Virus record (IMG/VR): IMGVR_UViG_3300028797_000135
Location: 1-64,000 of that record
DNA length: 64,000 nucleotides
Reading direction: 5' to 3' (one strand)
Source: a virus
Taxonomy: Duplodnaviria > Caudoviricetes
The first letter of the stretch is position 1. Each line of letters starts with the position of its first letter. The translations under genes and the position numbers were made by a program. The notes beneath the pieces are model-generated. The model was not told the DNA's origin, ran no database searches, and was given only the letters and a program-made list of their open reading frames with translations. Positions 5,662-28,401 of this stretch are shown here, one piece after another.

Positions 5662-5951
5662 ACTTTTTCCTCTTTGTTTAATGAGTTTGCAATTTCAGGG
5701 AAGTCATCAAGCTTGACCACCCGTTTCGGGAACATGTAGTCAAGCAATGCTTCCGCACATTTTCGCTTGTCAGACGGTAACGAGTTCGTCACAATATCGT
5801 ATGTTGGTGCATTCTTGCCGAAGAAATGCAACGCTGTCCACTCTGCATATTCTTCAACAAAAATCTCCATCTGGTTCAGTTTCGCAACAACAATAAACGC
5901 ACACGCAACCCGATGACCAAGAAGACCTTCCAATACTTCAAGGGCAGTCAT
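5658..5951 (-). CDS. hypothetical protein
   Basis: ATGA overlap with next gene. Confidence 0.55.
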   Translation of the reverse strand: MTALEVLEGLLGHRVACAFIVVAKLNQMEIFVEEYAEWTALHFFGKNAPTYDIVTNSLPSDKRKCAEALLDYMFPKRVVKLDDFPEIANSLNKEEKV

Positions 5952-5956
5952 TGCTG

Positions 5957-6730
5957 TTAAATCTCCACGGTAAAATCGTCTGCGGACAGGTTGTGCAAGG
6001 CGTACGGATTTTCTTCATGGCTTCCATAACCAAGAGGATTCAGCATGACCTGCATATTGCCAATCATCAGCTTGTGTGCATCGTGAGTATGGCCGCATCC
6101 CCAGTATTTGATACCAGAGTAGTCATAATGGTCAATGTTGAAATAGAAATACTGGTTTTTCTTAGAACCTTGATATTTCGGGTTCGTACTGCACTGCCAC
6201 GGCGCAAAATGAGTCAATACAATATGGGGCTTGGCCGAGGTAACTATTTCAAGACGATTCATTTCGTCACTCTTTATCTTCAGGAGGTCAACATCCTTTC
6301 CCCAATATTTACCGTCAAACCAATGCATCCGCCACTCATACTGGGTGAACGTGTCCTCTACATGGAAACCCCATAGACCCATCGTTCCCCCAATAAGAAT
6401 ATCGTCAACCATCGTAAGATGCTTGTCATAACCCAAGAGGGTAGCATTGTCCAACGTACTTGCAAAGTCTGCGATACGCTTTACCTTCTCAGCAGTGCTG
6501 TCGATGTCCTTATCCCATTCTACGGTCAAGTCGTGGTTTCCGAGAACGAATACAAAACGCTTGCACGATTTGGAGATAACATTCAGGCACTCCTTGATTG
6601 TTTCGAGAGAATTTCCGAAGTCACCAGAAATCAACAGCAAGTCAGCATCCTTGCCGTACGCTTCTATTTGCTTTTGTTTTTCCTCACGAGCGGAGTCGTA
6701 ATGAATGTCTGATAGAAATTTTGCTTTCAT
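5957..6730 (-). CDS. calcineurin-like metallophosphoesterase
   Basis: SDIH, GD, GNHD, THFAP, GHTH motifs; GGAGG RBS before MKAKF. Confidence 0.88.
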   Translation of the reverse strand: MKAKFLSDIHYDSAREEKQKQIEAYGKDADLLLISGDFGNSLETIKECLNVISKSCKRFVFVLGNHDLTVEWDKDIDSTAEKVKRIADFASTLDNATLLGYDKHLTMVDDILIGGTMGLWGFHVEDTFTQYEWRMHWFDGKYWGKDVDLLKIKSDEMNRLEIVTSAKPHIVLTHFAPWQCSTNPKYQGSKKNQYFYFNIDHYDYSGIKYWGCGHTHDAHKLMIGNMQVMLNPLGYGSHEENPYALHNLSADDFTVEI

Positions 6731-23031: not shown

Positions 23032-24372
23032 TTACTCTTCGCTCTTTGCACCCATCTTCTCGTACTCAGCGATGTACTTGAAGATACCGTCGCTGAATCC
23101 GTTGATGTGGATGAAGTCACCGTAAGAGATTCCGAACTGGTGCGGAGCCACGTTCACGATGTACTTGTGCGGGATGCGGAGAACATCCTTGGTGAAAGAA
23201 CCACCAATAGACTGCTCGTCGGTGATGATAATCACACGGTCAAACGGTCTGGTGTTAGCTCTAACAGCACTGTTTGTACAACCGTAAAGGTCAGTACCGC
23301 CAACGCAACGAGCACAACGGTCGGCAAGCGCAAAGCCCTTGGATGTGGTTGCGTGTGCATCCATATCGAAGGTGTAAACCTTGTCAAACTCACAGACCTC
23401 ATCCATGATGGCAGCGAGAGATGCGGCAGCCTCTCCACGAGTGACTTCGCTCTTACCTGCCAAATGGTTGTCCATAGAACCCGACGTATCGACCATGAAC
23501 AGGGTGTTACCCTCCAACTTGTCGAACGTCTCACGAGCGGCCTTCAACATTGCTGCCTCAAGCTGCTTGGAGTAGGTTCCGTCGCTGTACTTGTTTGCTG
23601 TGTAGAAGTTGTACGGCATGATGCCCTTCACGTTCAACTTCGAGATGCCATCCACGATTGCTCGCTGTGACACCTTTGCCTGCTCCATGTTGCGGAGGTT
23701 CCTCAACAGGGCGAGGGCACCCAGCTTGTTCGTTGAAAGAAGGTTCTCGAAGACCGTCTTCTTGTCCTTACCAGCGCTCAACTCGGTCTCCCAAGTAAGC
23801 GGAGTAGCAAGGCTGTTGTCTACAATCTTCTTGTAGAGAGCGTTCTTCTCGTCATTCGGTGCCTTCGGGTGGCACAGCATGACTGCATCCTTCAATGACA
23901 CATTCTTCTTGTTACCCTTGTACTTACCGAACTGGTACTCGTCGAACTTGTCGAACGACATAGCCAAGCCCTTCTGCAACTGCTTCGGAAGTGTCTTCTT
24001 CTTGCCGTCTGCGAGGTACATGGCGAGCAACTCGGTGATGTCATCAACACGGGTTACCGTCGAGTAAACAAGTTCCTTAGTCAGCTTACCCTGACTTGCG
24101 AGCACAGTAAGCATGAACAACGGGGTATGACGAAGGTGATACTCGTGCTTGGCCTTGTTCAGAGTTGCGATTGCAAACTCGTTGCTGACCTTGCCCATGT
24201 ATTCCTTGATGCGGTCCTTGATGGACTCTCCGTCCTCATAGAACGTATCCTCGTTCAGGAGGCAGCACAGCACAGTACGCTGCAACTTCTCCTCGAAACC
24301 GATGTGTGAAGCCTTTCCACCCTCGTGAGTGAACACAGGGGTAGATACCTTTCTCTTGTTAATCGACGCCAT
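23032..24372 (-). CDS. Ro60/Rsr TROVE-domain RNA-binding protein with vWA domain
   Basis: THEGG…L.R..LCCLL.E.TFYE, FD.YQF.KY…SLKD…HPK, TWE.ELS, ALLRNLRN, DTSGSM MIDAS, GGTD, IIITDEQ. Confidence 0.92.
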   Translation of the reverse strand: MASINKRKVSTPVFTHEGGKASHIGFEEKLQRTVLCCLLNEDTFYEDGESIKDRIKEYMGKVSNEFAIATLNKAKHEYHLRHTPLFMLTVLASQGKLTKELVYSTVTRVDDITELLAMYLADGKKKTLPKQLQKGLAMSFDKFDEYQFGKYKGNKKNVSLKDAVMLCHPKAPNDEKNALYKKIVDNSLATPLTWETELSAGKDKKTVFENLLSTNKLGALALLRNLRNMEQAKVSQRAIVDGISKLNVKGIMPYNFYTANKYSDGTYSKQLEAAMLKAARETFDKLEGNTLFMVDTSGSMDNHLAGKSEVTRGEAAASLAAIMDEVCEFDKVYTFDMDAHATTSKGFALADRCARCVGGTDLYGCTNSAVRANTRPFDRVIIITDEQSIGGSFTKDVLRIPHKYIVNVAPHQFGISYGDFIHINGFSDGIFKYIAEYEKMGAKSEE

Positions 24373-24423
24373 AATCATCTCCTTTGTTGTGATTAGGAAT
24401 TGTTGTTGATGTTAAAAAAGTAT

Positions 24424-24559
24424 TGCCAGATGTCGGACTCGGACCGACAACCTCCTGGATGATTCCTAAGTAACACATTTCATACACCACAATCCATGGG
24501 ATTGGGAAAAGCGAAAGTGCTGTTTTTGGCCTGGAGCTCTACCATTGAGCTAATCTGGC
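24424..24559 (-). ncRNA. tRNA-Y-module chimera 1 (no anticodon loop)
   Basis: acceptor GCCAGAT/ATCTGGC, D and T arms; anticodon loop replaced by CACTTTCGCTTTTCC-CAATCC-cat-GGATTG-T-GG-TGTAT-GAAATGTG-TTACTT module. Confidence 0.75.
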
Positions 24560-24572
24560 GTAAAGAAAAACA

Positions 24573-24724
24573 TGCCGACGGAAAGAGTCGAACTTTCAAA
24601 AGATTAATGTTATGGCAATCTAAGTAACTCTCACGTCGCAACGATTTTCACCGAGAAAGTTGTAAGAGGAACCCTCCCCTACCGTTAATCAACCTGTCGC
24701 CAGATTGACGGGGAGGCGTCGGCA
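24573..24724 (-). ncRNA. tRNA-Y-module chimera 2 (extended D-like arm)
   Basis: acceptor TGCCGACG/CGTCGGCA, T arm GAAAG-TTCGACT-CTTTC; module CTCTTAC…CGGT-GAAA-ATCG-T-TG…GTGAGAG-TTACTT. Confidence 0.65.
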
Positions 24725-24820: not shown

Positions 24821-24954
24821 TCCCACAGGCAGGATTTGAACCTACGACATCCAGTCACCATTATCGAAGTAAGCCATCCATACGTCACCTTTGCAGGGAA
24901 AAAAGCGAAAGGCTATTCATTTACTAGCGCTCTACCAGACTGAGCTACTGTGGG
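24821..24954 (-). ncRNA. tRNA-Y-module chimera 3 (no anticodon loop)
   Basis: acceptor CCCACAG/CTGTGGG, D and T arms; module AGCCTTTCGCTTTTTTC-CCT-GCAA-AGG-T-GA-CGTAT-GGATGGC-TTACTT. Confidence 0.75.
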
Positions 24955-24962
24955 AAAATTAG

Positions 24963-25046
24963 AGGAGGGAACAGGGTTCGAACCTGCGTGTCGTCACCGA
25001 CAAAGCTTTAGCAAAGCTCCGCTTTTACCAATTCAGCCATCCCTCC
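24963..25046 (-). tRNA. tRNA-Ser(GCT)
   Basis: cloverleaf with long variable arm. Confidence 0.88.
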
Positions 25047-25750: not shown

Positions 25751-25778
25751 AGAATCTCCTTTGATTTTGAAAATGTTA

Positions 25779-25864
25779 AGCACAAGGTAAGATTCGGACT
25801 TACGTGAGCCTTTCGGCCTAGAGGTTTTGCAGACCTCCCCCTTCGACCACTTGGGTACTTGCGC
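25779..25864 (-). tRNA. tRNA-Cys(GCA) with atypical long variable arm
   Basis: loop CT-GCA-AA; U73; variable arm GGCC-GAAA-GGCT. Confidence 0.75.
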
Positions 25865-25867
25865 TAA

Positions 25868-26636: not shown

Positions 26637-26709
<73 letters not shown>

Positions 26710-26713
26710 ATAG

Positions 26714-26786
26714 AGCGGATAATGGGACTCGAACCCACAACAACCTGCTTGGAGGGCAGGAACTCTACCAATTGAGCTACATCCGC
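26714..26786 (-). tRNA. tRNA-Gly(TCC)
   Basis: loop CC-TCC-AA; U73. Confidence 0.88.
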
Positions 26787-27457: not shown

Positions 27458-27583
27458 ACCCAGCGACAGGACTCGAACCTGTGACCACGAGTTTTGCAGA
27501 CTAAGTAACCCACTCTATCACAACCCTTGCGGGAGAAAAAGCGAACAGGTTTTTACGGGCTCTACCAACTGAGCTACACTGGG
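27458..27583 (-). ncRNA. tRNA-Cys(GCA) interrupted by 53-nt Y-module between positions 28 and 29
   Basis: removing 27503-27555 gives 73-nt tRNA with CGAGT-CTGCAAA-ACTCG arm and U73. Confidence 0.8.
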
Positions 27584-27586
27584 GAA

Positions 27587-27676
27587 ATCCAGGTAAAAAG
27601 GCGAAACCGATTACGCCCGTTAGGGCAAATCTGTGTGAAAGACAGAGCGAAGTAACGGTTTCTATCGACACTGGAT
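27587..27676 (-). ncRNA. free Y-RNA-like ncRNA A
   Basis: 5'/3' ends pair: ATCCAG-T-GT-CGATA-GAAACCG-TTACTT … CGGTTTC-GCCTTTTT-AC-CTGGAT. Confidence 0.7.
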
Positions 27677-27688
27677 GAAATTTATTAG

Positions 27689-27819
27689 TACCAGGAGCAG
27701 GACTCGAACCTACGACCCCGAGCTTAACAGGCTAAGTAACCCAACCAAAACGCCACCCTTGTACAGGGGAAAATTAGGACAGGTATTTTACGTGCTCTAA
27801 CCAACTGAGCTATCCTGGA
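27689..27819 (-). ncRNA. tRNA-Asn(GTT) interrupted by 57-nt Y-module between positions 28 and 29
   Basis: removing 27734-27790 gives 74-nt tRNA with CGAGC-CTGTTAA-GCTCG arm. Confidence 0.8.
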
Positions 27820-27826
27820 ATAAAAG

Positions 27827-27903
27827 AAGTCAGGTAAAAAGCGAAAGCGTGTTCTTTTTGCAGAGAATTCATCCTAAGTAACGCTTTCTAGCGACACTGA
27901 CTT
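27827..27903 (-). ncRNA. free Y-RNA-like ncRNA B
   Basis: AAGTCAG-T-GT-CGCTA-GAAAGCG-TTACTT … CGCTTTC-GCTTTTT-AC-CTGACTT. Confidence 0.7.
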
Positions 27904-27907
27904 TTAA

Positions 27908-27996
27908 TGGGTTGGATAGGAGTCGAACCTACAATGTTTACCCTAAGGGACCAGTTTTACAGACTGGTGCGAAACCACCATCCTCGCAGCCAACCC
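27908..27996 (-). tRNA. tRNA-Tyr(GTA)
   Basis: loop CT-GTA-AA; variable arm. Confidence 0.85.
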
Positions 27997-28239
27997 AAAG
28001 AAAAAGAAATAATGATACTCGACCCGAGGGGACTCATGTTTGCCTAACCTGCAGGTTAACCGCCCACTGTCGCACCGCACACCTGTGGCCCACATCGATT
28101 CAGCATACATTAACGGTCGCCCAGTCAGTCAATCGGCAGAATATCTCTGTCTCGGACTAGCACATCCAAAGCCGATTTAATCGCCACCGACTATTGTTGC
28201 TCCAATGAATCGGTTGTATGCTTGTATCATTAATTTTAG

Positions 28240-28372: not shown

Positions 28373-28401
28373 AATATAGAAAGATAATTGACAACTGTCA
28401 A
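28373..28401 (-). promoter_or_regulatory. sigma70-type promoter driving the Y-RNA/Ro60 half of the operon
   Basis: TTGACA-N17-TATATT. Confidence 0.75.

What the first reader, a model, noticed from the sequence alone, without database searches (positions are those of the whole stretch)
27587..27903. Two free-standing Y-like RNAs are circular permutations of the tRNA-embedded module
Seen: in 27587-27676 and 27827-27903 the module halves come in reverse order. 5' CAG-U-GU-CG(A/C)UA-GAAA(C/G)CG-UUACUU comes first and CG(G/C)UUUC-GC(C)UUUUU-AC-CUG last, so the 5' and 3' ends form the bulged helix. The tRNA body is replaced by one or two small hairpins. Each sits directly upstream of an interrupted tRNA, giving a duplicated [free Y + tRNA-Y] unit. 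The 5'-strand GUCGAUAG resembles, from memory, the GNCGAANG-type motif described for bacterial Y RNAs. Inference: one locus preserves both topologies and so illustrates how Y RNAs and tRNAs could interconvert.
Basis: partly seen in the sequence, partly recalled or inferred. Interest (0 to 1): 0.8.

Follow-up and report, generated by a model that had tools for sequence, protein, structure and literature searches.

The report
Phage Y RNAs beside Ro60 gene
Two small RNAs in the tRNA cluster of a giant rumen phage are most likely ordinary-shaped Y RNAs, partners of the phage's own Ro60 protein, and the same Ro60 "handle" is also grafted, back to front, into neighbouring tRNA-shaped RNAs.

Summary
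At 27587-27676 and 27827-27903 (minus strand) lie two 77-90 nt RNAs whose ends pair into a bulged helix: a 6-7 bp stem, a 5 x 7-8 nt internal loop, a 7 bp second helix, then UUACUU. The same two strands occur in reverse order, capped by a small hairpin, inside neighbouring tRNA-shaped RNAs. This is far beyond chance: 5 elements against 0.075 expected.

A TROVE/Ro60 gene lies 3.2-3.5 kb downstream on the same strand, with no terminator-like site in between. The 5' strand (GUCGAUAG, 6 nt, UUACUU) matches the published GNCGAAN0-1G...YUAY signature of bacterial Y RNAs. It also matches RNAs next to Ro60 in unrelated phages. Two clades of about 420 kb rumen phages keep both RNAs, with compensatory changes in both helices.

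My reading is that these are canonical-topology Y RNAs (YrlB/Yrl-like), released from the tRNA operon by tRNA processing and bound by phage Ro60. The free copies have the normal Y topology; the tRNA-embedded copies are the unusual, permuted ones. "Interconversion" is plausible, by tandem duplication, but not shown.

crAss001 shows the same free-plus-embedded pairing. Earlier notes of this scan describe similar two-topology handles in other phages. Binding, RNA ends and expression remain untested.

The parts
27587..27676 (-). Free Y-like RNA Y1 (90 nt with the extended terminal helix). It has a terminal helix, an internal loop, a second helix, two apical hairpins and a 3' strand.
   Evidence: Sequence. 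Fold at -28.8 kcal/mol, z -3.9. Model R1 scores 93 bits, E 4.6e-25 (self-match). Nine distinct orthologues.
27827..27903 (-). Free Y-like RNA Y2 (77 nt). It has the same terminal module and one weak apical hairpin with the loop CUGCAAAA.
   Evidence: Sequence. Fold at -18.0 kcal/mol, z -1.7. Six distinct orthologues. Consensus fold is the terminal bulged helix.
27662..27669 (-). Y1 5'-strand motif GUCGAUAG (GNCGAAN0-1G-like), running from the end of the terminal stem through the 5 nt internal loop into the second helix.
   Evidence: Motif definition in PMC4201824: 7 of 8 positions fit. The equivalent motifs in other Ro60 phages are GGUGUAG, GGCGAAG, UGCGAAAG and GUGCAUAG.
27650..27655 (-). Y1 UUACUU (the YUAY element plus UU) directly after the 7 bp second helix.
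   Evidence: This block is almost invariant (UUACUU, CUACUU or UUACAU) beside Ro60 in the six other phage loci examined.
27593..27609 (-). Y1 3' strand: CGGUUUC (second helix), GCCUUUUU (U-rich 8 nt loop side) and AC.
27615..27646 (-). Y1 apical part: hairpin UCUGU-CUUUCAC-ACAGA (5 bp stem, 7 nt loop, 6 of 7 loop letters as in the phage tRNA-Glu UUC loop) and hairpin GCCC-UAAC-GGGC.
   Evidence: The sequence is not conserved in the second clade, which has two other hairpins.
27888..27895 (-). Y2 5'-strand motif GUCGCUAG.
   Evidence: Relatives carry GUCGUUUG or GUCGUUAG.
27876..27881 (-). Y2 UUACUU.
27834..27849 (-). Y2 3' strand: CGCUUUC, GCUUUUU and AC.
   Evidence: L037 has GUG/CAC in place of GCG/CGC, a compensatory change.
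27689..27819 (-). E2: a tRNA-Asn(GUU)-shaped RNA with the same handle inserted in permuted order between positions 28 and 29. It lies directly downstream of Y2.
   Evidence: Removing the insert gives a perfect 5 bp anticodon stem (CG+AGC with GCUCG).
27458..27583 (-). E1: a tRNA-Cys(GCA)-shaped RNA with the handle inserted at the same site. It lies directly downstream of Y1.
   Evidence: The discriminator is U, as expected for tRNA-Cys (established knowledge).
23032..24378 (-). TROVE + vWA (Ro60/Rsr-like) gene, 448 aa, the presumed protein partner.
   Evidence: Pfam TROVE, E 1.2e-15. Full-length match to Thermus phage phiLo Ro60 (PDB 9L5Y/9KOP), E 7e-24, residues 12-438, with DTSGS at the MIDAS position.
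27907..27997 (-). tRNA-Tyr. Its 3' processing site lies 3 nt upstream of the Y2 terminal helix.
   Evidence: ARAGORN. Sequence.
28373..28401 (-). Sigma-70-like promoter (TTGACA, 17 nt, TATATT; 11 of 12). It is the nearest candidate start for the transcript that carries tRNA-Ala, tRNA-Tyr, Y2, E2, Y1 and E1.
   Evidence: This is a consensus match only. On this strand the next terminator-like site with a good stem is at 23009-22990, after the Ro60 gene.

Best explanation
Y1 and Y2 are phage-encoded Y RNAs of the simple type, like YrlB, Yrn2 or phiLo Yrl1/2. They have a Ro60-binding handle but no tRNA-like domain.

Shown:
- Each RNA closes its 5' and 3' ends into a conserved helix made of a 6-7 bp stem with a bulged U, a 5 x 7-8 nt internal loop and a 7 bp second helix.
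- The 5' strand carries G-U-C-G-N-U-N-G, then 6 nt, then UUACUU.
- The same handle sits, with strand order reversed and a hairpin cap, in five neighbouring tRNA-shaped RNAs.
- An intact Ro60 gene lies downstream on the same strand.

Inferred:
- The RNAs are made as part of one polycistronic tRNA-operon transcript.
- They are cut out by the enzymes that mature the flanking tRNAs: 3' processing of tRNA-Tyr or E2 just upstream, and RNase P at the 5' end of E2 or E1 3-8 nt downstream.
- The terminal helix then docks on the outer face of the phage Ro60 ring through its 5' strand.
- The variable apical hairpins serve as the effector or gate module, for example tethering a host exoribonuclease such as PNPase as in known Ro60-Y RNA-PNPase particles.

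Free and tRNA-grafted handles would thus give one Ro60 several alternative RNA partners during infection.
For: Structure:
- The terminal helix is the MFE and centroid fold of both RNAs and the RNAalifold consensus of both orthologue sets.
- On 15 distinct sequences, 85% of cells pair, against 23-45% when partners are slid. Four pairs change on both sides (UA/GC, CG/UA, CG/GC, CG/UA). None of 500 shuffles reach the covariation score.

Conservation:
- The Y2-E2-Y1-E1 unit is kept in two clades of rumen phages (Ro60 84-97% identical). The ends are conserved and the middles diverge.
- There are exactly two copies per complete 419 or 422 kb genome, both at this locus.

Context:
- The RNAs lie 3.2-3.5 kb upstream of the TROVE gene on the same strand. 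This meets the 4 kb, same-strand criterion of PMC4201824.
- No strong terminator-like site lies between them and the gene.

Signature:
- GNCGAAN0-1G followed by YUAY is present.
- The 6 bp / 5 nt loop / 7 bp / YUAY layout with an 8 nt 3' loop equals the structure line of Rfam YrlA.
- The same 5' strand precedes UUACUU or CUACUU next to Ro60 in phages of Xanthomonas, Rhizobium, Microcystis, Brevundimonas and Bacteroides (crAss001) and in an IMG/VR phage.
- A model built only from those phages ranks E3, Y1 and E1 as the top 3 of 128 kb searched.

Precedent:
- A free, tRNA-less version with a U-rich 3' loop exists in Xanthomonas phage Usaquen (L045:3462-3545).
- The closest solved homologue, phiLo Ro60, binds two free Y-like RNAs encoded upstream of its gene (PMC12135203).

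RNA libraries: contigs from rumen metatranscriptomes of three studies cover the stretch. This shows presence in RNA libraries only.
Against: - There is no binding, end-mapping or expression datum. The RNA-library evidence is assembled contigs, which could stem from DNA carry-over and say nothing about ends.
- No Rfam family reaches threshold on either RNA.
- The GNCGAAN0-1G match is imperfect: U for A in Y1, CU for AA in Y2, UUU in relatives.
- Most pairs are invariant, and the four covarying pairs reflect few events (three between the paralogues, one in L037).
- Y2 alone folds only modestly better than shuffles (z -1.7).
- The individual E-values of the cross-phage model are weak (0.044-0.66), and Y2 is not among its hits.
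Confidence: 0.68

Rival explanations
1. The two elements are not independent RNAs. Each stays joined to the interrupted tRNA that follows it, giving a composite RNA with two handles (free-type plus grafted) that could bind two Ro60 rings. Alternatively, each acts as a structured 5' leader that guides processing of that tRNA.
For: - Only 3-8 nt separate the terminal helix from the tRNA 5' end, and [Y + tRNA-Y] is inherited as one unit in all relatives.
- phiLo Ro60 forms dimeric assemblies on a Y-like RNA (PMC12135203).
- It is unknown whether the interrupted tRNAs are RNase P substrates.
Against: - E1 and E2 have regular 7 bp acceptor stems and D and T arms, the usual RNase P determinants.
- In other phages the free type stands without a following interrupted tRNA (L045:3462-3545).
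- The Y terminal helix is self-contained.
Confidence: 0.12
2. They are decaying by-products of tandem duplication and recombination among the tRNA-handle chimeras, transcribed as spacer and without a function of their own.
For: - The middle parts resemble anticodon arms of the chimeras or of phage tRNAs. The Y2 loop CUGCAAA equals the loop of E1 and of tRNA-Cys; the Y1 loop CUUUCAC compares with the tRNA-Glu loop CUUUCAA.
- One RNA-library contig joins 27541 to 27779, which would remove Y1.
- The middles diverge fast.
Against: - Both handle strands are almost invariant across clades whose Ro60 proteins differ by 16%, while the interior drifts.
- Compensatory changes keep both helices.
- Both copies are retained in both complete genomes.
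- The same free type recurs in unrelated Ro60 phages.
Confidence: 0.08
3. The handle is real, but its partner is not Ro60. It would be another protein of the phage or host, for example an RNA repair or processing factor such as RtcB, RNase P protein, PNPase or an Hfq-like binder of the U-rich loop.
For: - The U-rich 3' loop (GCUUUUU) differs from the A-rich 3' loop of the Rfam YrlA consensus.
- Complete relatives encode RtcB about 38 kb away.
- No binding data exist.
Against: - The handle's 5' strand tracks the Ro60 gene across very different phages.
- That strand matches the motif tied to Rsr binding in the literature.
- In these genomes the two free copies occur only at the Ro60 locus.
Confidence: 0.07

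Closest known systems
Simple bacterial and phage Y RNAs: S. Typhimurium and M. smegmatis YrlB, D. radiodurans Yrn2 (Chen et al. 2014, PMC4201824), and Yrl1/Yrl2 of Thermus phage phiLo (PMC12135203)
   Same: - Small RNAs encoded upstream of a Ro60/Rsr gene on the same strand.
- A stem formed by the 5' and 3' ends flanks a large internal loop that carries a CGA-type motif.
- They coexist at the locus with a tRNA-like Y RNA.
- At least in M. smegmatis they are processed from a common precursor.
- The phiLo Ro60 that binds Yrl1/2 is the best solved match of this Ro60.
   Different: - No detectable sequence homology beyond the short motifs.
- Here the RNAs sit inside a tRNA array of about 40 genes, bracketed by tRNA processing sites.
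- The motif is GUCG(A/C/U)U(A/U)G rather than GNCGAA(N)G, and the 3' loop is U-rich.
- Binding is untested here.
YrlA (Rfam RF02553), the tRNA-mimicking Y RNA
   Same: - The handle layout is the same: a 6 bp stem, a 5 nt 5' loop, a 7 bp helix, YUAY and an 8 nt 3' loop (structure line).
- The motif order and spacing are the same.
- Sub-threshold YrlA hits lie beside Ro60 in related phage loci.
   Different: - Y1 and Y2 lack the T arm, acceptor-like stem and D arm that define YrlA, and they get no YrlA hit.
- In this phage the tRNA-like partners (E1-E5) have tRNA-type ends and a closed handle, the circular permutation of YrlA, so the YrlA model misses them too.
Ro60-adjacent RNAs of Bacteroides phage crAss001 (NC_049977, unannotated region after gp96)
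   Same: Downstream of its TROVE gene (34% identical) lie at least four RNAs with ...GUGUA.AAUAGA(G/C)UUACUUCAA. One is free, with the ends in the stem (L043:5908-5990). One is an interrupted tRNA with the handle in reverse order (L043:6084-6227). One is tRNA-like without a D arm (L043:6338-6478). This is the same two-topology set.
   Different: - The sequences are too diverged for the free-Y covariance model R1.
- They lie downstream, not upstream, of the gene.
- The papers I could search give no description of these RNAs.
Metazoan Y RNAs (hY1-5, Xenopus Y3)
   Same: The terminal stem is formed by both ends, with a bulged nucleotide. A conserved 5'-strand motif (GGUCCGA, as quoted in PMC4201824) is contacted by Ro60. 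The apical region is variable.
   Different: They are Pol III transcripts with an oligo-U/La-binding 3' end. No sequence homology was tested here; the resemblance is by layout only.

Membership tests
Y RNA (Ro60/Rsr partner RNA, functional class) | Encoded close to a Ro60/Rsr gene on the same strand (within 4 kb in PMC4201824) | tested here: met
   Y1 ends 3,209 nt and Y2 starts 3,525 nt upstream of the TROVE gene start (24378). All lie on the minus strand.
Y RNA (Ro60/Rsr partner RNA, functional class) | The 5' and 3' ends pair into a stem interrupted by a bulge or internal loop | tested here: met
   Single-sequence folds, consensus folds and pair counts with 4 covarying pairs.
Y RNA (Ro60/Rsr partner RNA, functional class) | GNCGAAN0-1G (CGAA-type) motif on the 5' strand | tested here: inconclusive
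   GUCGAUAG fits 7 of 8 positions, GUCGCUAG fits 6 of 8, and relatives carry GUCGUUUG. Other Ro60 phages show the same looseness at these positions (GGUGUAG, GUGCAUAG, UGCGAAAG).
Y RNA (Ro60/Rsr partner RNA, functional class) | Physical binding to Ro60, and Ro60-dependent accumulation | not testable with these tools
   No RNA-protein assay or suitable dataset was available. The RNA-library contigs only show presence.
YrlA (RF02553) | tRNA-like domain (T arm, acceptor-like stem-loop, D arm) between the two handle strands | tested here: not met
   No T or D arm lies in 27587-27676 or 27827-27903, and there is no tRNA or YrlA match there even at E<=10.
YrlA (RF02553) | Score at or above the Rfam gathering threshold (69 bits) | tested here: not met
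   There are no hits on the two RNAs. The weak YrlA hits in the window (16-25 bits) straddle junctions of adjacent tRNAs, pairing the T arm of one with the D arm of the next.
YrlA (RF02553) | Conserved YUAY after the handle's second helix | tested here: met
   UUAC is at nt 22-25 of the folded 90 nt Y1 (nt 20-23 counted from CCAG) and at nt 23-26 of Y2. Relatives carry AUAC. The published position is nt 22-25 in S. Typhimurium YrlA.
YrlB/Yrn2-type simple Y RNA | [quoted passage not shown] | tested here: inconclusive
   Neither RNA has a tRNA module. Y2 is roughly one long interrupted hairpin. Y1 is a three-way junction with two hairpins. No sequence model of YrlB was available.
tRNA (RF00005) | Cloverleaf with acceptor, D, anticodon and T arms | tested here: not met
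   ARAGORN and Infernal find nothing in the two intervals. Only an anticodon-arm-like hairpin is present.

The most novel reading that the evidence does not exclude
The locus, like that of crAss001, would be a natural experiment in RNA circular permutation. One Ro60 handle is used both as a free Y RNA and as a graft in the anticodon stem of otherwise decodable tRNAs (Cys GCA, Asn GUU).

The free forms keep an anticodon-stem-loop mimic. The whole set would work with phage Ro60 and RtcB as a tRNA surveillance, repair or decoy system against host anticodon nucleases.

As a variant of this reading, the grafted handles are excised and become Y RNAs of the free topology.
Probability: 0.1. Interest if true: 0.85.

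Novelty: new variant of a known kind. Interest (0 to 1): 0.5.

Why it matters
Y RNAs are known as Ro60 tethers and gates, and bacterial YrlA is known to mimic tRNA. How handle and tRNA body came together is open.

Here the free RNAs themselves are ordinary: new, Rfam-invisible members of the Y RNA class. What is useful is that they give the reference topology at a locus where the same handle is also grafted into tRNA-shaped RNAs in the opposite strand order. The same duality is present in the cultivable phage crAss001.

That makes several questions testable:
- Does Ro60 care whether its handle is open-ended or loop-capped?
- Are handle-bearing tRNAs charged or decoded?
- Do tRNA-processing enzymes mature Y RNAs?

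It also supplies a sequence signature (G.YG..[AU]G, 6 nt, YUACUU) for annotating partner RNAs beside phage Ro60 genes, which are currently left blank.

Tried and rejected
- **Rfam.** Searches at gathering and at E<=10 gave nothing on either RNA. A plus-strand c-di-GMP-I-GGC hit (13.9 bits, E 1.5) is noise.
- **YrlA hits in the window.** The weak hits at 26684-26743, 24929-24988 and 24536-24599 pair the T arm of one tRNA with the D arm of the next, so they are not YrlA genes.
- **IMG/VR pattern scans.** Apart from the relatives, they returned only chance matches inside coding sequence (L011, L015-L018, L020-L022, L024, L027 and L028).
- **Free-Y covariance model R1.** It finds only this phage group. 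It does not hit crAss001 or the Brevundimonas, Microcystis, Xanthomonas, Rhizobium or L010 loci.
- **A third helix (UUAC/GUAA).** Only 45% of cells pair, so I dropped it.
- **Intrinsic-terminator reading of stem plus GCUUUUU.** The scan does not flag it, the loop is 33-46 nt, and in the embedded copies the U-tract precedes the hairpin.
- **Own promoter for Y1 or Y2.** None was found.
- **Ribozyme or group I intron reading.** No Rfam support. A bulge-helix-bulge intron reading of E1/E2 finds no fitting motif by eye.
- **RNA-library contigs.** They cannot give ends, strand or level, no silent control stretch was laid, and uncovered bins mean nothing.
- **RtcB.** It is absent from this 99 kb fragment but present in the complete relatives.
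- **Papers.** Two reviews (PMC10870794 and PMC6047535) are not held.
- **Not run.** A genome-contig scan for hosts or prophages.

Full report
**Setting**

The window is the first 64 kb of a 99 kb IMG/VR virus contig, about 24% of a genome by CheckV. ARAGORN finds 35 tRNA genes, all on the minus strand, between 22.5 and 32.5 kb. Inside this array lies a 448 aa TROVE-domain gene (23032-24378, minus strand; Pfam E 1.2e-15). It aligns over residues 12-438 with the Ro60 of Thermus phage phiLo (PDB 9L5Y/9KOP, E 7e-24) and keeps a DTSGS MIDAS-type motif.

Close relatives have Ro60 proteins 84-97% identical and fall into two clades. They include two complete genomes of 419 and 422 kb with terminal repeats. 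DNA and RNA-library holders of the stretch are bovine and sheep gut samples. So this is a jumbo phage of the rumen.

**The observation**

- Y1 (27676->27587): AUCCAG-U-GU-CGAUA-GAAACCG-UUACUU, then two hairpins, then GUAA-U-CGGUUUC-GCCUUUUU-AC-CUGGAU.
- Y2 (27903->27827): AAGUCAG-U-GU-CGCUA-GAAAGCG-UUACUU, then a weakly structured middle, then CGCUUUC-GCUUUUU-AC-CUGACUU.

The ends pair into a 6-7 bp stem with a bulged U and two more pairs. A 5 x 7-8 nt internal loop follows, then a 7 bp second helix. This is the MFE and centroid fold of both RNAs (Y1 -28.8 kcal/mol, z -3.9; Y2 -18.0 kcal/mol, z -1.7).

Each RNA is followed within 3-8 nt by an interrupted tRNA: E2 at 27819-27689 and E1 at 27583-27458. 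In these, and in three more tRNA-shaped RNAs just upstream of the Ro60 gene (24954-24821, 24724-24573 and 24559-24424), the same two strands occur in the opposite order. They are joined by a short hairpin, GCAA-capped in E1 and E3.

The co-occurrence of the two diagnostic blocks is far beyond chance. Five elements carry both blocks, against a mean of 0.075 (max 2) in 200 dinucleotide shuffles of the contig. The spacing is +38 and +52 nt in the free RNAs and -35, -35 and -40 nt in the embedded ones.

**Conservation and structure**

The Y2-E2-Y1-E1 block is present in every relative that reaches this far. In both RNAs the two handle strands are nearly invariant, while the interior is rewritten between clades.

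RNAalifold returns the terminal bulged helix as the consensus of both orthologue sets. On the joint alignment of 15 distinct sequences, 85% of cells pair, against 23-45% when partners are slid by 1-3 columns. Four pairs change on both sides, and no shuffle of 500 reaches the covariation score.

These four pairs reflect few events: three differences between the paralogues and one GCG/CGC to GUG/CAC change in L037. The support is therefore real but modest. A third helix (UUAC/GUAA) is not conserved.

Model R1, built from these RNAs, finds exactly two copies in each complete genome, both at this locus.

**What they are**

Chen et al. 2014 (PMC4201824) defined bacterial Y RNAs by four features:
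- proximity to rsr on the same strand;
- a GNCGAAN0-1G motif near the 5' end;
- a conserved YUAY;
- in YrlA, a tRNA-like T/acceptor/D domain.

They also noted that each species studied has a second, simpler Y RNA (YrlB, Yrn2), processed in M. smegmatis from the same precursor.

Y1 and Y2 meet the position criterion, at 3.2-3.5 kb on the same strand. They carry GUCGAUAG or GUCGCUAG followed after six nucleotides by UUAC. Their layout (6 bp stem, 5 nt loop, 7 bp helix, YUAY, 8 nt 3' loop) equals the structure line of the Rfam YrlA model. They lack any T or D arm and get no YrlA or tRNA hit.

An independent check came from other phages with Ro60 genes 26-41% identical to this one. Beside the gene, these have sub-threshold YrlA hits and a strikingly uniform 5' strand: G(G/U)(C/U)G..(A/U)G, 5-6 nt, G(U/C)UAC(U/A)UC. 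A sequence-only model built from 18 such strands, none from this phage group, puts its three best hits in the whole window (128 kb of both strands) on E3, Y1 and E1. Each E-value is weak (0.044-0.66), and Y2 is missed.

Xanthomonas phage Usaquen has a free, tRNA-less RNA of the same design, including a U-rich 3' loop (L045:3462-3545). phiLo Ro60 has been shown to bind two free Y-like RNAs encoded upstream of its gene (PMC12135203).

I therefore read Y1 and Y2 as simple Y RNAs, partners of the phage Ro60.

**How they probably work**

The nearest promoter-like site on this strand is at 28401-28373 (11 of 12 matches). No strong terminator-like site follows until after the Ro60 gene. So the RNAs are probably part of one tRNA-operon transcript.

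The Y2 terminal helix starts 3 nt after the tRNA-Tyr discriminator and ends 8 nt before the E2 5' end. The Y1 helix starts 12 nt after E2 and ends 3 nt before E1. Maturation of the flanking tRNAs would thus release both RNAs with almost flush ends. This is inference.

Binding of the 5' strand of the handle to the outer face of the Ro60 ring follows from the Xenopus and bacterial precedents quoted in the two papers. So does use of the apical part as tether or gate. Neither is tested here.

The apical hairpins look like anticodon arms. The Y2 loop CUGCAAA equals the loop of E1 and of the phage tRNA-Cys. The Y1 loop CUUUCAC compares with CUUUCAA of tRNA-Glu. Only the Y2 loop is partly conserved.

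**The permutation claim**

The relation is real, but its polarity needs restating. The free RNAs have the topology of all known Y RNAs. The tRNA-shaped RNAs are the permuted form, with tRNA-type ends and a closed handle. This is also the circular permutation of YrlA.

In E1 and E2 the handle is inserted between tRNA positions 28 and 29. Removing it restores perfect anticodon stems with GCA and GUU loops.

Tandem tRNA-handle genes automatically contain the YrlA order. Reading from mid-E5 to mid-E4 gives strand A, UUAC, a hairpin, a T arm, the two acceptor strands, a D arm and strand B. Tandem duplication followed by trimming is therefore a plausible route between the topologies. Nothing here shows which came first.

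The same free-plus-grafted set exists downstream of the TROVE gene of crAss001: free at L043:5908-5990, an interrupted tRNA at 6084-6227 and a D-arm-less form at 6338-6478. So the duality is not an accident of one lineage. Earlier notes of this scan report comparable two-topology handles in other phages. I did not test those.

**Limits**

- Contigs from RNA libraries of three studies cover the region, and one spans Y1. Contigs cannot show transcription, strand or ends.
- No literature I could search describes handle-bearing tRNAs or this permutation, but the two main reviews are not held.

**Verdict**

The RNAs are most likely genuine phage Y RNAs of the simple type, and as such they are new members of a known class. 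The noteworthy part is their pairing with permuted, tRNA-grafted copies of the same handle.

Noticed in passing
window 28100-28222 (-): The spacer between tRNA-Ala and tRNA-Tyr folds much better than shuffles (-41 kcal/mol, z -3.4). It contains GGUGGCGAUUAAAUCGG, which resembles the handle's 5' strand but lacks UUACUU. The cross-phage model R2 gives a weak hit at 28171-28193 (E 4.4).
   Followed up: partly
window 27541 / 27779 (joint in an RNA-library contig): One rumen metatranscriptome contig joins 27541 to 27779 with 4 other letters between. This gives a single unit (Y2 plus a hybrid E2/E1 tRNA) without Y1. It is either a natural copy-number variant made by recombination between E2 and E1, or an assembly collapse.
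   Followed up: no
L005/L008/L009 (orthologues of E1), aligned to window 27458-27583: In the second clade the tRNA-shaped RNA orthologous to E1 has the anticodon loop AUUAGGA (UAG) instead of CUGCAAA (GCA). The body and handle are kept. This is an anticodon switch within one handle-bearing tRNA.
   Followed up: no
L043 (Bacteroides phage crAss001, NC_049977) 5900-6600: The unannotated 900 nt after the TROVE gene gp96 holds at least four RNAs with ...AAUAGA(G/C)UUACUUCAA. They include a 144 nt interrupted tRNA (Rfam tRNA 46.6 bits) and a free Y-like RNA.
   Followed up: partly
L045 (Xanthomonas phage Usaquen) 3300-3910: Four handle-bearing RNAs lie in tandem just upstream of the TROVE gene. Three are YrlA-like (50, 39.6 and 25.8 bits, all below the Rfam threshold) and one is free of any tRNA domain. 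None is annotated.
   Followed up: partly
window 25778-25865 (-): The regular phage tRNA-Cys(GCA) is 88 nt long and has a long extra arm (GGCCGAAAGGCU), which is unusual for tRNA-Cys.
   Followed up: no
window 32905-32877, 31804-31776 (-): Two perfect 12 of 12 sigma-70 consensus promoters (TTGACA, 17 nt, TATAAT) head parts of the tRNA array. This hints at a host with a classical sigma-70 promoter type.
   Followed up: no
G001 347254-348321 and G002 62994-64061 (complete relatives): An RtcB RNA ligase gene of about 400 aa lies about 38 kb from the Ro60 gene in both complete relatives. The corresponding part is beyond the end of this contig.
   Followed up: partly
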